A program made the position numbers and the translations under genes. Source: a virus (lineage: Duplodnaviria; Caudoviricetes). From it: DNA of 28,172 nucleotides. The notes under the pieces were generated by a model, which was not told where the DNA came from, did no database searches, and was given only the letters and a program-made list of their open reading frames with translations. The stretch is taken from positions 1-28,172 of IMG/VR virus record IMGVR_UViG_3300044624_001154; one strand, 5' to 3'. Numbering within the stretch: the stretch's first letter is position 1; each line of letters starts with the position of its first letter. This document shows, in pieces, positions 5,504 through 12,150 of this stretch.

Positions 5504-5997
5504 TGCCGCAGCTGCGCCTGAGCCATTCCCCGCAAGCGGGGATCTCCACGGGTCATGGCCTTCAGCAGTGCATCTTTCTCCGCCAAGTACACCACAGCAA
5601 ACTTCGGGTCATGCTTAACAATGTCCCGTGTGTTGCTGATAAGATCAGCGTACTTGATGGTTTGGACTGCCGGGTGTGCCCGGTATAGTCTCACACGGTC
5701 TTTGTTCTTACGGTAAGTCCGGTTTTCCGGTCCCTCGTAATTGGTCAGCTGCTCGACCATGTGCGCAACCGCAGGCCCAAACCGAAAGTTGAGTTCTTCT
5801 TCGGTAACGCCCTGATCTTCCATGCTGTCGTGCAAATAGGCAGCTTGCACCATGCTGTTCAGATGAACGGCAGGCGCAACGCTAGCCACTAGCCCGGCAA
5901 CTTCGGTAAGGTGCGTGATGTAGGGCAACCCGGTGTACTTACGGACTTGATGCCTGTGTACACTGGTTGCAAACTCAAGCGCTTCGTAGTTGTTCAT
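5479..5997 (-). CDS. HD-domain phosphohydrolase, MESH1/SpoT (small alarmone hydrolase)-like
   Basis: Motifs HRHQVRKYTGLPYITH, AAYLHDSMED and IKYADLISN. Confidence 0.88.
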   Translation of the reverse strand: MNNYEALEFATSVHRHQVRKYTGLPYITHLTEVAGLVASVAPAVHLNSMVQAAYLHDSMEDQGVTEEELNFRFGPAVAHMVEQLTNYEGPENRTYRKNKDRVRLYRAHPAVQTIKYADLISNTRDIVKHDPKFAVVYLAEKDALLKAMTRGDPRLRGMAQAQLRQCYDSLKS

Positions 5998-6295
5998 TGT
6001 CGCCCGTTCCTGGCCATGCCCAAGGGCACCGAGACCGGCGCGACACAGCCGGGTCGAAGTTCAAGCCGCGCCAGCGCTTTCCCGCTACGAGGGAATAAAA
6101 ATCCCGCTCATAGTAGCTTACGGCATCCGCGGTTTTGTTCCCGTAGGAAGACCGGTACCACCTGTTACCGTCCCAATAGCCCAGCACGCAACTACCTAGG
6201 CTGCTCTCACGCTCCCACAGCCCCGGACAAGGGGGATTACCCTCTTGCCACGGGGTCTTGTCTGAGTCGGGAAGCTCAGAGGTCTTGTAGGGCAC
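5975..6295 (-). CDS. Hypothetical Trp-rich protein
   Basis: 106 aa ORF tightly packed between its neighbours (TPW...PGLWER...YWDGNRW). Confidence 0.65.
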   Translation of the reverse strand: MPYKTSELPDSDKTPWQEGNPPCPGLWERESSLGSCVLGYWDGNRWYRSSYGNKTADAVSYYERDFYSLVAGKRWRGLNFDPAVSRRSRCPWAWPGTGDNEQLRSA

Positions 6296-6868: not shown

Positions 6869-6887
6869 TGGGTACTCCATACAGTGC

Positions 6888-6933
6888 TCAGCGCACTCGG
6901 AAGCCCTCCGTAGAGGGCAACCGGCTACGCTGA
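6888..6933 (-). promoter_or_regulatory. Intergenic stem-loop with internal loops; putative RNase III site
   Basis: 46 nt hairpin sharing CGGAAGCCCT...AGGGCAACCGGCT (plus strand) with 7334-7379. Confidence 0.6.
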
Positions 6934-7287: not shown

Positions 7288-7333
7288 AGGAACTCCTAAG
7301 TAATTGTCCAGGGCAACATTGCCCATAGTGCGA

Positions 7334-7379
7334 TGATCGCACCCGGAAGCCCTGCACGCAGGGCAACCGGCTGGGATCA
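7334..7379 (-). promoter_or_regulatory. Intergenic stem-loop with internal loops; putative RNase III site
   Basis: Second copy of the 46 nt hairpin, with compensatory stem changes. Confidence 0.6.
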
Positions 7380-8419: not shown

Positions 8420-9064
8420 TTACGCCCAAGGATCAGTGATTACCCACTGACCGTCAGAGCGCAGCATGATGTTGTTGCGGTGCAAATCTGCACCGGCGCC
8501 AGGTGGAGCAAAACCACGAAGGGCTTTACCTATGGTGTATTCTTTGCGGTATTCTTCGTGTTTGCACATAGCCCCAGACAAGCCGAAGCTCAAACTCCAA
8601 TACCGACGGTCGAGGTCTAATCTTTCCTGCTCATTAAGTGTAACTTCCGCCCGGCACTCATCCAGCGTTGAGCCTAGCCGCTCTATCAGGCTGATGGTGC
8701 AGCCTGAAAACGACTCCAAGTACCCGACGTTTAGTAGGTAAGCGCTAATACCTGGGCAGTTGCGCTCAAGTTCTGCCTTGTGGATAAAGCAGATGTGGGC
8801 ATAGTGTGCCCAGAGATCTTCGCCCGGAACGATCTTGACGACCTTACCTTCAAGGCACGGGCTGCTCACGGCGATGCCAAAACAGCCAGTTCCAAGGACC
8901 TTAAATCCTGCCAAGCTCAGTTGCTTTTTCCACAAGTTGCGGTAACTGCCCGCAGAAGGTTGGTCGGGTACACTACAGCCTAGCATGGCGTACATCTTGT
9001 ACGTCGGCATTTTGAGCGCAATAGATTGCAGCAGGCCGATAACGGCACGCTCACTTTTATTCAT
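8420..9064 (-). CDS. Ser/Thr protein kinase, T7 gp0.7-like kinase domain
   Basis: Gly-rich loop LGTGCFG, VVKI, catalytic loop DLHRNNIM and ITDP. Start reassigned to ATG 9064 with GGAG RBS. Confidence 0.88.
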   Translation of the reverse strand: MNKSERAVIGLLQSIALKMPTYKMYAMLGCSVPDQPSAGSYRNLWKKQLSLAGFKVLGTGCFGIAVSSPCLEGKVVKIVPGEDLWAHYAHICFIHKAELERNCPGISAYLLNVGYLESFSGCTISLIERLGSTLDECRAEVTLNEQERLDLDRRYWSLSFGLSGAMCKHEEYRKEYTIGKALRGFAPPGAGADLHRNNIMLRSDGQWVITDPWA

Positions 9065-9069
9065 ACGAA

Positions 9070-9960
9070 CTCCACTTCGTAGGTTAAAGATGGTGTGCTG
9101 GATTATGCCCAACGCTTTCGGCGCCCACCCGCTCGGCACTGCTGTCGCAGCCGCTAGCAAAGGCACGGATTACGCTGGATCGTGTAGCAGTTAAGGGCTA
9201 TTGCCCAGCACACAAGCAAACACCTAGGCTAGGGGCTTGCTTGTGGGTAGGGTGTGCGGCATGGCCAGCGCGGTGACTAGCCCAAAGTTTCCGTAGTCAG
9301 CGGCGAGCGTCTGCCACACGTTGGCAGCCTCGACCATACCGCACTGTTAGTCACCCAACGTCCCGCCATCATAAGTTGGGCACGATTTTCCGGATTGGAT
9401 GACTAACAGTACGTCCGCTTGTTAGCAGATTTCCTGTCGTTGCGTTGGCACGTTAACGTCTAACCCAAGCATTGCGCAAATAGACGGCCTGCATAACAGG
9501 CTTGTGTGGCTAAGGAGTCTAGAACAAAGCCACAGGATAACGCTGTCGCTATCCTGTAGCCCCGCACTGCCGGCCGGACAGTGAAGAGTCTACACCGGCG
9601 TTAACGAGGCACGGACACGGGCAGGCCAACTGCCAGGGCTTTCACACAGTTTCCGGGGCATTAGTCCGGCGAAGCAACACACAGTCGCTTAAATGCTCTC
9701 CCATGATGCAACAAGTGTGCGGGAGGTCAGGGCTAGTCTGGTTACACCCGACATTCAGGTGCCCTACGCCTGTCAGCAGTAGGGATAGCGGCCACAGTCA
9801 CGGCCGCACGACTTATCGCCAAGTCATACTTAACATTGACTCATTATGGTTCAGGAGCTAGGGCGAGAAAACCCGCTAGGCGTGTGGCGTAAGTTACGGC
9901 ACACAGGTAAGCGCTCACAACAAGCGCTTAACCGTGTGGCCTAGCCTTGCGGCTAGGCTC
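9070..9960 (-). ncRNA. Candidate large structured non-coding RNA of unknown family
   Basis: About 890 nt with no credible ORF, tiled by helices of up to 14-18 bp that pair fully only through G-U pairs on the minus strand. Confidence 0.6.
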
Positions 9961-9964
9961 TTGG

Positions 9965-10492
9965 TCACATCGGGGCGGAACCGACACCGGCCAGGGCATC
10001 GCCGAAGCCGGCGGCATCGTCCACACCGGCCAGGGCTTCCACCTGGGCCATGAGGTCAACGTTCACGACCTGCTTGGCCTTGCTCTGCTTGCCCTTGGCC
10101 GACTTCAGGAACGCCAGCAGCGCCTTCTGGAAGTCGTAGACTTCCTCGACGGCGGGTTCCGGGGCGTACTCGTACCAGGGCTTCTTGGCCGCGGTTTCGA
10201 GGTTGTTCTTCTTCTCGGCGTCCTTGACGAAAGGCCGGGTCTTCTTGGTGCCTTCGTCGTCGTTGGCACGCAGGTGGCTGTTGCCCAGAATCCACTGGGC
10301 CATCGCGCTGGTCTTGGTGCCCTTGGGCATGGCCAGGAACAGGCGATTCATGAAGCCATCGTCGCCGCTGTCCACGATGTGTTGCAGCGCGGCCATCGCC
10401 AGCTTCTGGCCCTGGATCAGCCACTGCTTGCCGTCATGGCCCCACTTGTCAATGGCGGCATTGAGGGCAGAGGCACTCATTTTCTCATTCAT
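9965..10492 (-). CDS. Early hypothetical protein, probably highly expressed
   Basis: ATG 10492 with GGAG RBS; strongly GC-biased third codon positions. Confidence 0.85.
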   Translation of the reverse strand: MNEKMSASALNAAIDKWGHDGKQWLIQGQKLAMAALQHIVDSGDDGFMNRLFLAMPKGTKTSAMAQWILGNSHLRANDDEGTKKTRPFVKDAEKKNNLETAAKKPWYEYAPEPAVEEVYDFQKALLAFLKSAKGKQSKAKQVVNVDLMAQVEALAGVDDAAGFGDALAGVGSAPM

Positions 10493-10499
10493 GTTACAC

Positions 10500-10806
10500 A
10501 CTCCACAGAGTAACCTGCAAGGCGCAGGCCAAGGCCCACAGGGTGGGCTATGGTCTGAGTCTTACCTCAGTGCATGCGCCGCAGTGTCGGCGACACTTGG
10601 CGGCCCAGGCTGCTAATGTTGTCGGAATAGTCGATAACGGCATGAGGCACGCCGTCTGCCTGCTGGGCACGCTCGGCCAGGGATTGTGCCAGCTCCTTGT
10701 TAACGTTCAGGATGCAAGCCCCATCCCGGTACGTAAGAATGCAGCGGGTTTCAAGATTGGCAACAACGTACATTACAACTCCAGAGAGTAACCTGCAAGG
10801 CGCAGG
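10500..10806 (-). repeat. Two copies (10500-10528 and 10778-10806) of a 29 bp leader: hairpin plus RBS
   Basis: Minus strand CCTGCGCCTTGCAGGTTACTCT[G/C]TGGAGT, with one mismatch; each copy directly precedes an ATG. Confidence 0.85.
10567..10773 (-). CDS. First early gene, hypothetical protein
   Basis: Start reassigned to ATG 10773 after the repeated leader: MYVVANLETRC... Confidence 0.7.
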   Translation of the reverse strand: MYVVANLETRCILTYRDGACILNVNKELAQSLAERAQQADGVPHAVIDYSDNISSLGRQVSPTLRRMH

Positions 10807-11368
10807 GTTATAGATGCCACGTATAACGTACAGGGCATGATGGTTGATCCTGCTTTGCGCAGCAGCATCTATAACCCTACACCCAACAATGTTGGGGTAG
10901 TTCACTAACTAGCCGTCGTCCACAAGATAGCCGCCAACGACCAGCCACACTCGGCTAGATCGCAGCATCTAGGTGCTGCCACAAGGTTGGGTTCTCAGGG
11001 GATGGAGGGATAGTCGCAACGCTGCTTTCGGCGTCACTTCAGGGTCTTAGCCTGCCGCCTACACCTGCTCCGCTTTGGTTCAGTGGGTTACTAGCCCACC
11101 TACCGCACGTCTGCACCGTAGGGCTTGCCGTTTAGTCGCATGGTGGGTACTCACCATTGGTCTAGGCTGCATCCTGGGTGCTTCATACGGCCGCCCACCG
11201 TCAAGCCCTATCCGGGCCTATAACGGCATCCTGCCAATCCACACACCTATCCACAAACCGCGGGGTTGTTTGCCGCCCAGACAGGCTTGCGCCCATCCTG
11301 CTTCCCCTGTCACCAGACAGCCACTCTCGCCGCTGTCACGTAGGGCTTGCACCCTGCTGTCCTACTGA
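10800..11368 (-). ncRNA. Structured early 5' leader or candidate sRNA with multiple GGA motifs
   Basis: No credible minus-strand ORF; GNRA-capped hairpins; CAGGATG three times; a 21 bp helix at its 3' end. Confidence 0.45.
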
Positions 11369-11374
11369 GCCTGA

Positions 11375-11403
11375 ACTTTAGCACAGTCTCAGAACCTTGT
11401 CAA
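11375..11403 (-). promoter_or_regulatory. Host sigma70 early promoter
   Basis: TTGACA-17 nt-TAAAGT with an extended -10 TG. Confidence 0.88.
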
Positions 11404-11442
11404 CCCCCGGTCACTCGGTTGTTGTCTCAGTCCGTTGTCTGC

Positions 11443-11471
11443 ACTGTAGCACAGTCCCACCGGCTTGTCAA
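11443..11471 (-). promoter_or_regulatory. Host sigma70 early promoter
   Basis: TTGACA-17 nt-TACAGT with an extended -10 TG. Confidence 0.85.
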
Positions 11472-11515
11472 CCCCTAGCGGCTTGCGCTGCTCGGAGCCT
11501 GTCAACCTAGCCGAT

Positions 11516-11544
11516 ACTCTAGCACAGTCTTCGCTGTCTGTCAA
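11516..11544 (-). promoter_or_regulatory. Host sigma70 early promoter
   Basis: TTGACA-17 nt-TAGAGT with an extended -10 TG. Confidence 0.85.
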
Positions 11545-11641
11545 CCCCGCACCCGGAGGATGCAAGCGCTGGCAGCATGGATAGATACGGCAGGGTAGCC
11601 CAAATATAGCGGGCATAGCTGCGCCTATCCTCAGCTGGTGT

Positions 11642-11658
11642 GCTGTTATACCGGTACT
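11642..11658 (-). promoter_or_regulatory. Putative phage RNA polymerase promoter
   Basis: AGTACCGGTATAACAGC, identical to the intergenic copy at 19668-19684. Confidence 0.7.
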
Positions 11659-11686
11659 AGATCAATCGACCTAGCCGATGGCCTGA

Positions 11687-11715
11687 ACTATGGCACAGAC
11701 TGCGCCGCTTGTCAA
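11687..11715 (-). promoter_or_regulatory. Host sigma70 early promoter
   Basis: TTGACA-17 nt-CATAGT with an extended -10 TG. Confidence 0.75.
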
Positions 11716-11785
11716 GCCCTGTTAGCCGCTCCACCAGGGAGCGCCTACCGTAGCCGTAGCACCGAAGCGCTGTGGCATGGAACGA

Positions 11786-11814: not shown

Positions 11815-11854
11815 TAGGGAAAACCCTTGTGGCGAAAAAGAGACAGATGCCGCC

Positions 11855-12150
11855 ACTGCACACGGCACCCGCCCGCCCACGCACCGCCGCCCCTGCGCCC
11901 CACGCACACACGCCCATGCAGGCCCCTGCGCGCCCGCTCCCGCGCCTTTCGCACGTGCCCGCACCTACGCCCCACCCACGCACGCACGGCCCGCCAGCGC
12001 CCGCCCAGGCACCCGCACGGGCCCGCGCCCACGGGCAGGCACGCACGCCTGCGCCCCTGCGTGCAAGCGCGTGCCTGCGCGCCCATGCGCCTACGCACGC
12101 CCCCGCGTTAGGCGCGCACGCATGGGCCCACGGGGGTATACGCGCGCGCT
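11855..12150. repeat. GC-rich low-complexity tract in the probable terminal repeat region
   Basis: Degenerate CACGC, CGCCC and CCTGCG units, very few T on the plus strand; lies at the late/early junction. Confidence 0.7.

What the first reader, a model, noticed from the sequence alone, without database searches (positions are those of the whole stretch)
9070..9960. About 890 nt of ORF-free, densely base-paired sequence: candidate novel large phage ncRNA
Seen: most genes in this window abut or overlap, yet about 0.9 kb upstream of the kinase has no credible ORF and is tiled with helices. Examples are an 18 bp helix (9395-9412 with 9341-9358), a 14 bp hairpin (9529-9560), an 11 bp helix (9332-9342 with 9256-9266) closing a multibranch loop, and many shorter hairpins such as CACCUGA/UCGGGUG, AAGCGAC/GUUGCUU, GCGGCCGU/GUGGCCGC and CCCUAC/GUAGGG. 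The imperfect positions are repeatedly G-U pairs on the minus strand, which would be A-C mismatches on the plus strand. That points to selection on folded RNA in the direction of early transcription. Long bulged hairpins at 9899-9940 and 9203-9252 could be processing sites releasing a core of about 650-700 nt. I recognise no tmRNA, RNase P, group I/II intron or hammerhead core. Inference: a discrete early RNA acting as a scaffold, decoy or defence sponge, possibly linked to the adjacent kinase.
Basis: partly seen in the sequence, partly recalled or inferred. Interest (0 to 1): 0.85.

Follow-up and report, generated by a model that had tools for sequence, protein, structure and literature searches.

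The report
Phage RNA cassette array, new motifs
The gene-free 890 bases in this lake phage's early genes are not one giant RNA but a chain of swappable folded cassettes, two of which are uncatalogued RNA motifs kept by related phages, and they are likely cut out by a host enzyme and may act as decoys for host proteins.

Summary
In detail: the named helices are real, favour the minus (early-transcript) strand, the stretch has no credible ORF, and Rfam finds nothing. The reading as one 650-700-nt RNA does not hold: a 94%-identical relative lacks a 131-nt block, and only two short parts recur in more distant relatives (helicases about 53-76% identical). Motif 2 (9359-9394) is a roughly 36-nt core on a freely rewritten long helix. 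It occurs in 16 distinct sequences, with both-side changes in 15 of 16 pairs and a possible 3-4-bp pseudoknot. Motif 1 (9093-9213) is a closing stem with an invariant C-loop-like internal loop, found in 7 lineages including cultured Curvibacter phage P26059B. Both are patchy, even between sister phages, and motif 2 moves between positions. In all 8 carriers the first arm of motif 1 is also paired in an upstream hairpin, which in relatives resembles T7 early hairpins, so RNase III cutting likely frees it. The kinase link is not obligatory. Expression, cleavage and function are untested. Earlier scan notes describe similar mosaic arrays in other phages; none matched this DNA.

The parts
11371..11719 (-). 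Four sigma-70-type promoters (37-nt repeat family), the likely source of the early transcript
   Evidence: (4 sites, 10 of 12 matches each), family D1
9965..10492 (-). Conserved early gene of unknown function (phrog_1448, 175 aa); synteny anchor upstream of the array
   Evidence: model pLDDT 90 with no clear PDB match
9900..9958 (-). 8-bp hairpin plus hairpin A (7+9 bp, one mismatch); candidate processing site at the 5' end
9420..9895 (-). 5' tract of local hairpins, including the 19-pair hairpin 9524-9565; found only in near-identical relatives
   Evidence: no distant homologue
9341..9412 (-). Helix B (18 bp), carrier of motif 2 and candidate RNase III substrate; rewritten with compensation in relatives
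   Evidence: L344 keeps the helix with a 4-bp swapped block
9359..9394 (-). Motif 2 core: 10-nt conserved bulge, 2-bp stem, bulged U, 4-bp stem, conserved 12-13-nt loop that tolerates inserted hairpins; possible 3-4-bp pseudoknot
9211..9341 (-). Optional 131-nt cassette: closing helix 9332-9344/9254-9266, two inner hairpins and hairpin C (9212-9244); absent in L007
9093..9213 (-). Motif 1: closing stem P1 (9205-9213/9093-9101), invariant C-loop-like internal loop (9199-9204 opposite 9102-9106), inner stem and variable cap
   Evidence: C-loop variants in PMC4551918
8420..9064 (-). T7 gp0.7-like Ser/Thr kinase gene (214 aa, ATG 9064 with Shine-Dalgarno)
   Evidence: (phrog_15752, E 4e-12)

Best explanation
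The stretch is a chain of separately inherited folded-RNA cassettes behind four host-type early promoters, and host RNase III likely cuts its long helices so that the freed ends refold into small stable RNA domains, which most likely bind host proteins as decoys. Shown: the helices, the strand bias, covariation of motifs 1 and 2, their patchy gain, loss and movement, and a 131-nt cassette lost with the next stem arm regenerated exactly. Predicted from folding: in all 8 carriers the first arm of motif 1 can pair either in the upstream hairpin or in its own closing stem. Inferred from T7: transcription by host polymerase, RNase III cleavage, and extra processing capacity from the gp0.7-like kinase. 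Inferred from distribution only: an accessory host-interaction (decoy) role, because the motifs come and go between sister phages as early accessory genes do.
For: Motif 2: 15 matches in 89 sources, 10 of them training sequences and 5 new, plus L344, giving 16 distinct sequences. 90% of cells paired, 15 of 16 pairs with both-side changes, 0 of 500 shuffles as high, slid controls 32-48% (model-fitted alignment); the MAFFT alignment gives 14 of 16, and RNAalifold predicts the same fold unprompted. Motif 1: 8 sequences in 7 lineages, 92% paired, 5 of 17 pairs with both-side changes. Pattern scans gave 119 and 41 matches; only the 6 and 6 from this phage group form the stem, and the rest listed have at most 5 pairs. 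Sister pairs differ on the helicase tree: L043/L048, L024/L025, L050/L052, L009/L010, L014/L022. 7-10 of the last 10 bases of the P1 arm are paired in the upstream hairpin in 8 of 8 carriers; those hairpins in L011, L013 and L014 share 16-17 of 22 bases with T7 early intergenic hairpins. [quoted passage not shown] Syntenic gaps fold with z of -3 or lower in 10 of 15 loci on the sense strand and 3 of 15 on the antisense strand (10 shuffles).
Against: No cleavage, expression or binding data exist here. The window's own hairpin C matches T7 hairpins at only 11-13 of 22 bases, which is chance level, and hairpins A (16 bp) and C (14 bp) are short. The 5' 480 nt has weak comparative support: of 26 substitutions examined in close relatives, 6 keep a predicted pair, 5 break one and 15 fall in weakly paired positions. 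In 8 of 16 carriers motif 2 lies within about 115 nt upstream of the phrog_1448 gene, and in this phage motif 1 runs straight into the kinase start, both of which fit cis control as well. Motif 1's pair count alone is only marginal against shuffles (23 of 500). No host partner was identified. The shuffle control ignores relatedness among the sequences.
Confidence: 0.5

Rival explanations
1. The motifs act in cis: after processing they are 5' leader elements that set stability or translation of the next early gene (motif 1 for the kinase, motif 2 usually for the phrog_1448 gene).
For: Motif 2 lies just upstream of the phrog_1448 start in 8 of 16 carriers. Motif 1 directly precedes a Shine-Dalgarno in this phage, L007 and L009. 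Short hairpins precede many early starts.
Against: The downstream gene differs among carriers. In L011, L013, L014, L024 and L025 motif 1 is followed by further structure before any start. Sister phages keep the same gene and carrier hairpin with or without motif 2 (L024/L025, L043/L048).
Confidence: 0.28
2. Motif 2 is a new small self-cleaving ribozyme that cuts the early transcript without host enzymes.
For: Compact size, invariant single-stranded bases, freely variable carrier helix and optional inserted hairpins. The possible pseudoknot holds 3 pairs in 16 of 16 sequences and gains a fourth pair or swaps G-U for A-U in 3.
Against: No Rfam ribozyme hit. The pseudoknot bases are nearly invariant, so they give little covariation. 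The motif sits on long helices that could already be RNase III substrates.
Confidence: 0.08
3. The region is one large ornate non-coding RNA of 650-700 nt.
For: Continuous structure over 900 nt with minus-strand bias.
Against: A 131-nt deletion and other replaced blocks in close relatives. No full-length homologue in 50,697 phage records or in the 87 loci then held. The conserved parts are unlinked across relatives. No sigma-70 promoter inside or just before it and no strong terminator.
Confidence: 0.06
4. The stems act as DNA (single-stranded hairpins, recombination or replication signals), not RNA.
For: Cassette ends share a short common tail that could guide recombination. No RNA data were available.
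Against: One-strand G-U use (26 against 5), location on the transcribed strand, one copy of motif 2 in this genome, and an RNA-type C-loop pattern in motif 1.
Confidence: 0.04

Closest known systems
RNase III processing hairpins of the T7 early transcript (PMC4858673, passages read)
   Same: Intergenic long hairpins behind several host promoters, beside a gp0.7-like kinase; relatives' hairpins share the upper stem, small internal loop and lower stem layout and up to 17 of 22 bases with T7 hairpins.
   Different: The T7 intergenic stretches folded here are about 55-105 nt with plain loops. Here 900 nt of non-coding cargo lies between and on top of the hairpins, with conserved loop motifs not found in the T7 early region (motif 1; motif 2 was not searched there).
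C-loop RNA 3D motif (PMC4551918, passages read)
   Same: Motif 1's invariant loop reads N-CAAU opposite A, one extra base, and a pairing base; the paper's accepted variants have this CAAU/A pattern and allow 0-2 bulged bases.
   Different: The closing pair is G-U and this exact variant is not among those I saw listed. A C-loop is a structural module, not a function.
Early intergenic non-coding RNAs of crAss-like phage phi14:2 (bioRxiv 10.1101/2020.03.07.982082, passages read)
   Same: Long gene-free stretches among early genes, of unknown function.
   Different: Different phage order; expression is shown there and not here; no sequence comparison was made.
Large ornate RNAs GOLLD, ROOL, OLE (Rfam)
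   Same: Size range and density of helices.
   Different: No Rfam match, no whole-length conservation, and internal blocks are dispensable.
Orphan structured RNA candidates of phages (PMC10690425; supplement search only)
   Same: Comparative-genomics motifs in phage intergenic regions without known function.
   Different: Motif strings were not found in the 4 supplementary files that could be searched; five other files (three zip archives, two PDFs) could not be read, so overlap is not excluded.

Membership tests
T7-type RNase III processing site | Long helix of roughly two turns, tolerating a small internal loop (recalled) | tested here: inconclusive
   Helix B has 18-20 pairs (met); A has 16 and C 14 pairs (borderline)
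T7-type RNase III processing site | Lies between genes of a host-polymerase early operon | tested here: met
   Four sigma-70-type promoters upstream on the same strand and no strong terminator between
T7-type RNase III processing site | Sequence likeness to T7 early hairpins | tested here: inconclusive
   16-17 of 22 bases for L011, L013, L014; 10-13 for L024, L025 and the window's hairpin C. The T7 record does not annotate the sites; their identity is recalled.
T7-type RNase III processing site | Pair preferences around the cut (PMC6212723) | not tested
   The scoring table is in a supplement that I did not fetch; section 27 read
T7-type RNase III processing site | Cleavage by RNase III | not testable with these tools
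   Needs in vitro cleavage or RNA end mapping
C-loop motif | CAAU strand opposite A plus 0-2 bulged bases between two flanking pairs | tested here: met
   Invariant in 8 of 8 sequences against variants listed in PMC4551918
C-loop motif | Crossing non-Watson-Crick pairs in 3D | not testable with these tools
   Needs JAR3D scoring or a solved structure
Large ornate ncRNA (GOLLD, ROOL, OLE) | Match to the family model | tested here: not met
   No such hit at E up to 1 (window) or up to 10 (region)
Large ornate ncRNA (GOLLD, ROOL, OLE) | Whole-length conservation as one unit | tested here: not met
Known self-cleaving ribozymes and riboswitches in Rfam | Match to a family model | tested here: not met
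   Window and 17 relative loci scanned, some being the same contig twice; only sub-threshold noise
Known self-cleaving ribozymes and riboswitches in Rfam | Self-cleavage or ligand binding | not testable with these tools
   Needs biochemistry
Type III antitoxin mimic arrays (recalled) | Tandem near-identical repeats | tested here: inconclusive
   No repeat family confined to 9070-9960 among the 20 largest of at least 60 shown; no dedicated tandem scan was run

The most novel reading that the evidence does not exclude
The array is an RNA-only counter-defence kit: a T7-like phage uses host RNase III, boosted by its own kinase, to release several small RNAs at the start of infection, and motif 2 is a new pseudoknotted fold that binds a host defence protein or signal, or cuts itself.
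Probability: 0.2. Interest if true: 0.85.

Novelty: new variant of a known kind. Interest (0 to 1): 0.55.

Why it matters
T7-like early regions are treated as strings of small proteins separated by plain processing hairpins. Here the hairpins carry conserved, mobile RNA cargo that turns over between sister phages like accessory genes. Two new covarying motifs are defined well enough to synthesise and test, and one is present in a cultured phage with a harmless culturable host (P26059B on Curvibacter sp. IMCC26059), so expression, cleavage and partner can be tested directly.

Tried and rejected
Rfam: beta_tmRNA (E 0.59, wrong strand), CC0196 (E 1.6) and mir-30 (E 0.076, helix only) are noise. 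blastn of the region against 50,697 phage records gave one 27-nt chance hit; the motif-2 helix gave 9 chance-level hits. Host mimicry: none of 85 bacterial or archaeal pattern matches is a motif-2 member (best E 0.048); 1 of 151 genomes of a betaproteobacterial order gave a weak hit that lacks the conserved loop. This is 'not found in those searched'. Antisense to 23S rRNA: the motif-2 loop has a perfect 8-nt complement next to a conserved 23S motif in 4 of 10 rRNA-like loci, 6 nt in 3 and none there in 3; too short and not universal, so kept only as a lead. Obligatory kinase link: rejected; my first tblastn missed divergent kinases, and the profile found them. Partner protein: the phrog_1448 model has no clear solved match (Foldseek best E 0.84; VIA best Z 5.2) and matches only uncharacterised phage proteins. 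Small ORFs: rejected for lack of a Shine-Dalgarno and single-base indels in relatives (the X18 and X19 contigs are low depth). Sequencing runs: no RNA holder listed among 20, which says nothing about expression; X15 and X16 gave no laid contigs. The H-type pseudoknot seen by eye in L011, L013 and L014 has no demonstrated counterpart in the window. Model R2 found no new members beyond its training set. A wider locus search with the 125-sequence phrog_1448 alignment could not run, so loci came from a helicase search and DNA patterns; the metagenome collection was searched only for the kinase. Not in print, as far as searched: nine paper searches listed no paper on these motifs, and the P26059B paper has 0 occurrences of non-coding, intergenic, promoter or RNase III.

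Full report
Context. The window is part of a T7-like (Autographiviridae) phage with its genes on the minus strand: DNA polymerase, helicase, primase, terminase and internal virion proteins. The closest cultured helicase is that of Curvibacter phage P26059B, at 64.5%. Runs holding the DNA are mostly lake-water or freshwater metagenomes. Four sigma-70-type promoters at 11371-11719 head the early region. The finding lies between a conserved early gene of unknown function (phrog_1448, 9965-10492) and a T7 gp0.7-like kinase whose start is the ATG at 9064.

Observation. The minus strand carries 8 uninterrupted stems of 10 bp or more against 2 on plus, with 26 against 5 G-U pairs; 2 of 60 control strand-windows reach 8. 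Global z is -4.9 against -2.8, and 150-nt windows at 9301-9600 reach -5.9 and -5.0. A control weakens the thermodynamic argument: with local folding the strands give -4.6 and -4.1, and 4 of 15 other windows do as well on minus. None of 6 small minus-strand ORFs has a Shine-Dalgarno. Rfam gives nothing real.

It is not one unit. Two viral contigs are identical over the region. A relative about 94% identical (L007) lacks exactly 9211-9341. Run X8 shows the same joint and may be the same DNA, so I count it once; a low-depth contig of X18 replaces 9214-9433 with 94 other letters. The L007 deletion joins the tail of helix B to the next cassette so that the closing-stem arm of motif 1 is regenerated base for base. 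Of 26 substitutions examined, 6 keep a predicted pair, 5 break one and 15 lie in weakly paired positions. I left out 10 of the 25 X8 substitutions: 3 in genes and 7 beside indels, where L007 carries a different small hairpin. The 5' 480 nt therefore rests on folding energy and strand bias, not on covariation; tiled searches found no distant homologue.

Relatives. A helicase search returned 243 relatives, of which 80 loci were kept. Many have a gene-free gap after the phrog_1448 gene; of 15 such gaps folded, 10 have sense-strand z of -3 or lower, against 3 on the antisense strand. P26059B has an unannotated 654-nt gap there.

Motif 2 (core 9359-9394, on helix B). It was found by tiling and extended by pattern scans: 11 of 15 matches were structured members of this phage group, and 13 of 85 were strong matches to the model. 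A covariance model gave 15 matches in 89 sources, 5 of them outside the training set; with L344 there are 16 distinct sequences. The fold is a long, fully rewritten carrier helix, a conserved 10-nt bulge, a 2-bp stem, a bulged U, a 4-bp stem and a conserved loop; L024 and L048 insert extra hairpins in the loop. Both-side changes occur in 14 of 16 pairs on the MAFFT alignment and 15 of 16 on the model-fitted one, with 0 of 500 shuffles as high and slid controls far lower; RNAalifold predicts the same fold. The bulge and loop can form 3 pairs in 16 of 16 sequences, with a fourth pair in 2 and a G-U to A-U change in 1; this pseudoknot is a prediction. There is one copy in this genome. It lies just upstream of the phrog_1448 gene in 8 carriers, 500-700 nt further upstream in 2, downstream in 5, and in 1 locus without a confident phrog_1448 hit. 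L344 has the same order as the window: phrog_1448 gene, motif-2 helix, kinase-like gene, with one extra gene after the first. No member was found among 85 bacterial or archaeal pattern matches or in 151 genomes of a betaproteobacterial order.

Motif 1 (9093-9213). A closing stem, an invariant internal loop and an inner stem enclose 88-127 variable bases. It occurs in 8 sequences from 7 lineages, always after the phrog_1448 gene; 92% of cells pair and 5 of 17 pairs change on both sides (23 of 500 shuffles reach that pair count, 0 of 500 the cell count). Pattern scans serve as a control: of 119 matches (scan stopped at 45 of 64 parts) and 41 matches, only 6 and 6 from this group form the stem. 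The loop fits the C-loop pattern listed in PMC4551918 (passages), though with a G-U closing pair. In 8 of 8 carriers, 7-10 of the last 10 bases of its first arm are also paired in an upstream hairpin, so the two folds exclude each other.

Distribution. On a helicase tree of 32 loci the motifs are patchy, and sister pairs differ (L043/L048, L024/L025, L050/L052 for motif 2; L014/L022 for motif 1; L009 has only motif 1 and L010 only motif 2). Kinase-like genes lie near 8 of 16 motif-2 carriers and 2 of 8 motif-1 carriers, and L018, L022 and L027 have a kinase without either motif; four motif-2 loci cover only 2.5 kb each side.

Mechanism. [quoted passage not shown] The hairpins before motif 1 in L011, L013 and L014 share 16-17 of 22 bases with T7 early intergenic hairpins; the window's hairpin C does not (11-13). 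The T7 record does not annotate the sites, so their identity is recalled. A cut in the 3' arm would free the short tail that begins each cassette, letting it close its own stem and give a protected RNA domain: the 9344-9254 cassette and motif 1 both begin this way. Conserved single-stranded bases on freely varying stems point to a binding surface, and rapid gain and loss point to an accessory role in host interaction, so I favour protein-binding decoys (0.5 for the whole chain; the modular RNA architecture alone about 0.85, RNase III cutting about 0.65). Cis control of the next gene (0.28), a new ribozyme (0.08), one large RNA (0.06) and a DNA element (0.04) are the rivals.

What is known. No Rfam family matches the window or 17 relative loci. 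Nine paper searches listed nothing on these motifs. For PMC10690425 I saw the listing and searched 4 supplementary files without a hit; five files were unreadable and may bear on novelty. Early intergenic RNAs of unknown function are reported for phi14:2 (passages), and 29 leader-derived RNA candidates for Pseudomonas phages, 2 of them in LUZ19 (bioRxiv 10.1101/2023.10.13.562163, passages). PMC6212723: passages and section 27 read; PMC5964084: full-text term search only. Earlier notes of this scan describe mosaic early RNA arrays in other phages, but none matched this DNA or protein by place or sequence; I had reached the cassette reading before seeing them and did not check their claims.

Verdict. 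Real, RNA-level and partly new: a T7-style processed early region carrying two uncatalogued, covarying and mobile RNA motifs, not a single large RNA. Function is untested. Interest 0.55.

Noticed in passing
window 6000-6043 and 10303-10346: A 44-nt inverted copy (93%) of part of the phrog_1448 gene sits at the end of ORF 5975-6295, so a transcript there would be antisense to the early mRNA. It is absent in L007, and no such self-match was found in the other 30 loci tested.
   Followed up: partly
window 10500-10528 and 10778-10806: A 29-nt direct repeat flanks the ORF in 10567-10776; L007 lacks the unit between them, another early cassette lost between repeats. The repeat forms a small hairpin before the ribosome-binding site, also seen in several relatives.
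   Followed up: partly
window 6877-6926 and 7323-7372: Two related intergenic hairpins with a small internal loop before early genes; one is nearly the same as the hairpin before motif 1 in L024. Candidate RNase III sites.
   Followed up: partly
window 10905-11400; relatives upstream of the phrog_1448 gene: A second gene-poor early leader; most relatives have 0.7-1.7 kb without a long ORF there. Not analysed for motifs of its own.
   Followed up: no
L011, L013, L014, about 20-170 nt after motif 1: A shared hairpin whose loop can pair with a downstream stretch (H-type pseudoknot seen by eye); a third candidate motif, not found in the window.
   Followed up: no
window 9816-9833; L043 and L048: 17 of 18 bases shared with a stretch at a short ORF start in L043 and L048 (E 0.09); may be chance or a gene remnant.
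   Followed up: no
window 9365-9373: The motif-2 loop is complementary over 8 nt to a 23S rRNA stretch in 4 of 10 rRNA-like loci tested; probably chance.
   Followed up: yes
window 11840-12150: Low-complexity G+C-rich repeats between the late and early regions, with many stems; probably the genome-end region.
   Followed up: no
window 9965-10492: The phrog_1448 protein is widespread (594 representatives), folds confidently (pLDDT 90) and has no clear solved relative.
   Followed up: partly
L344 1375-1713: An ORF with a PagP-like PHROG match (E 3e-9) lies between the phrog_1448 gene and the motif-2 gap.
   Followed up: no
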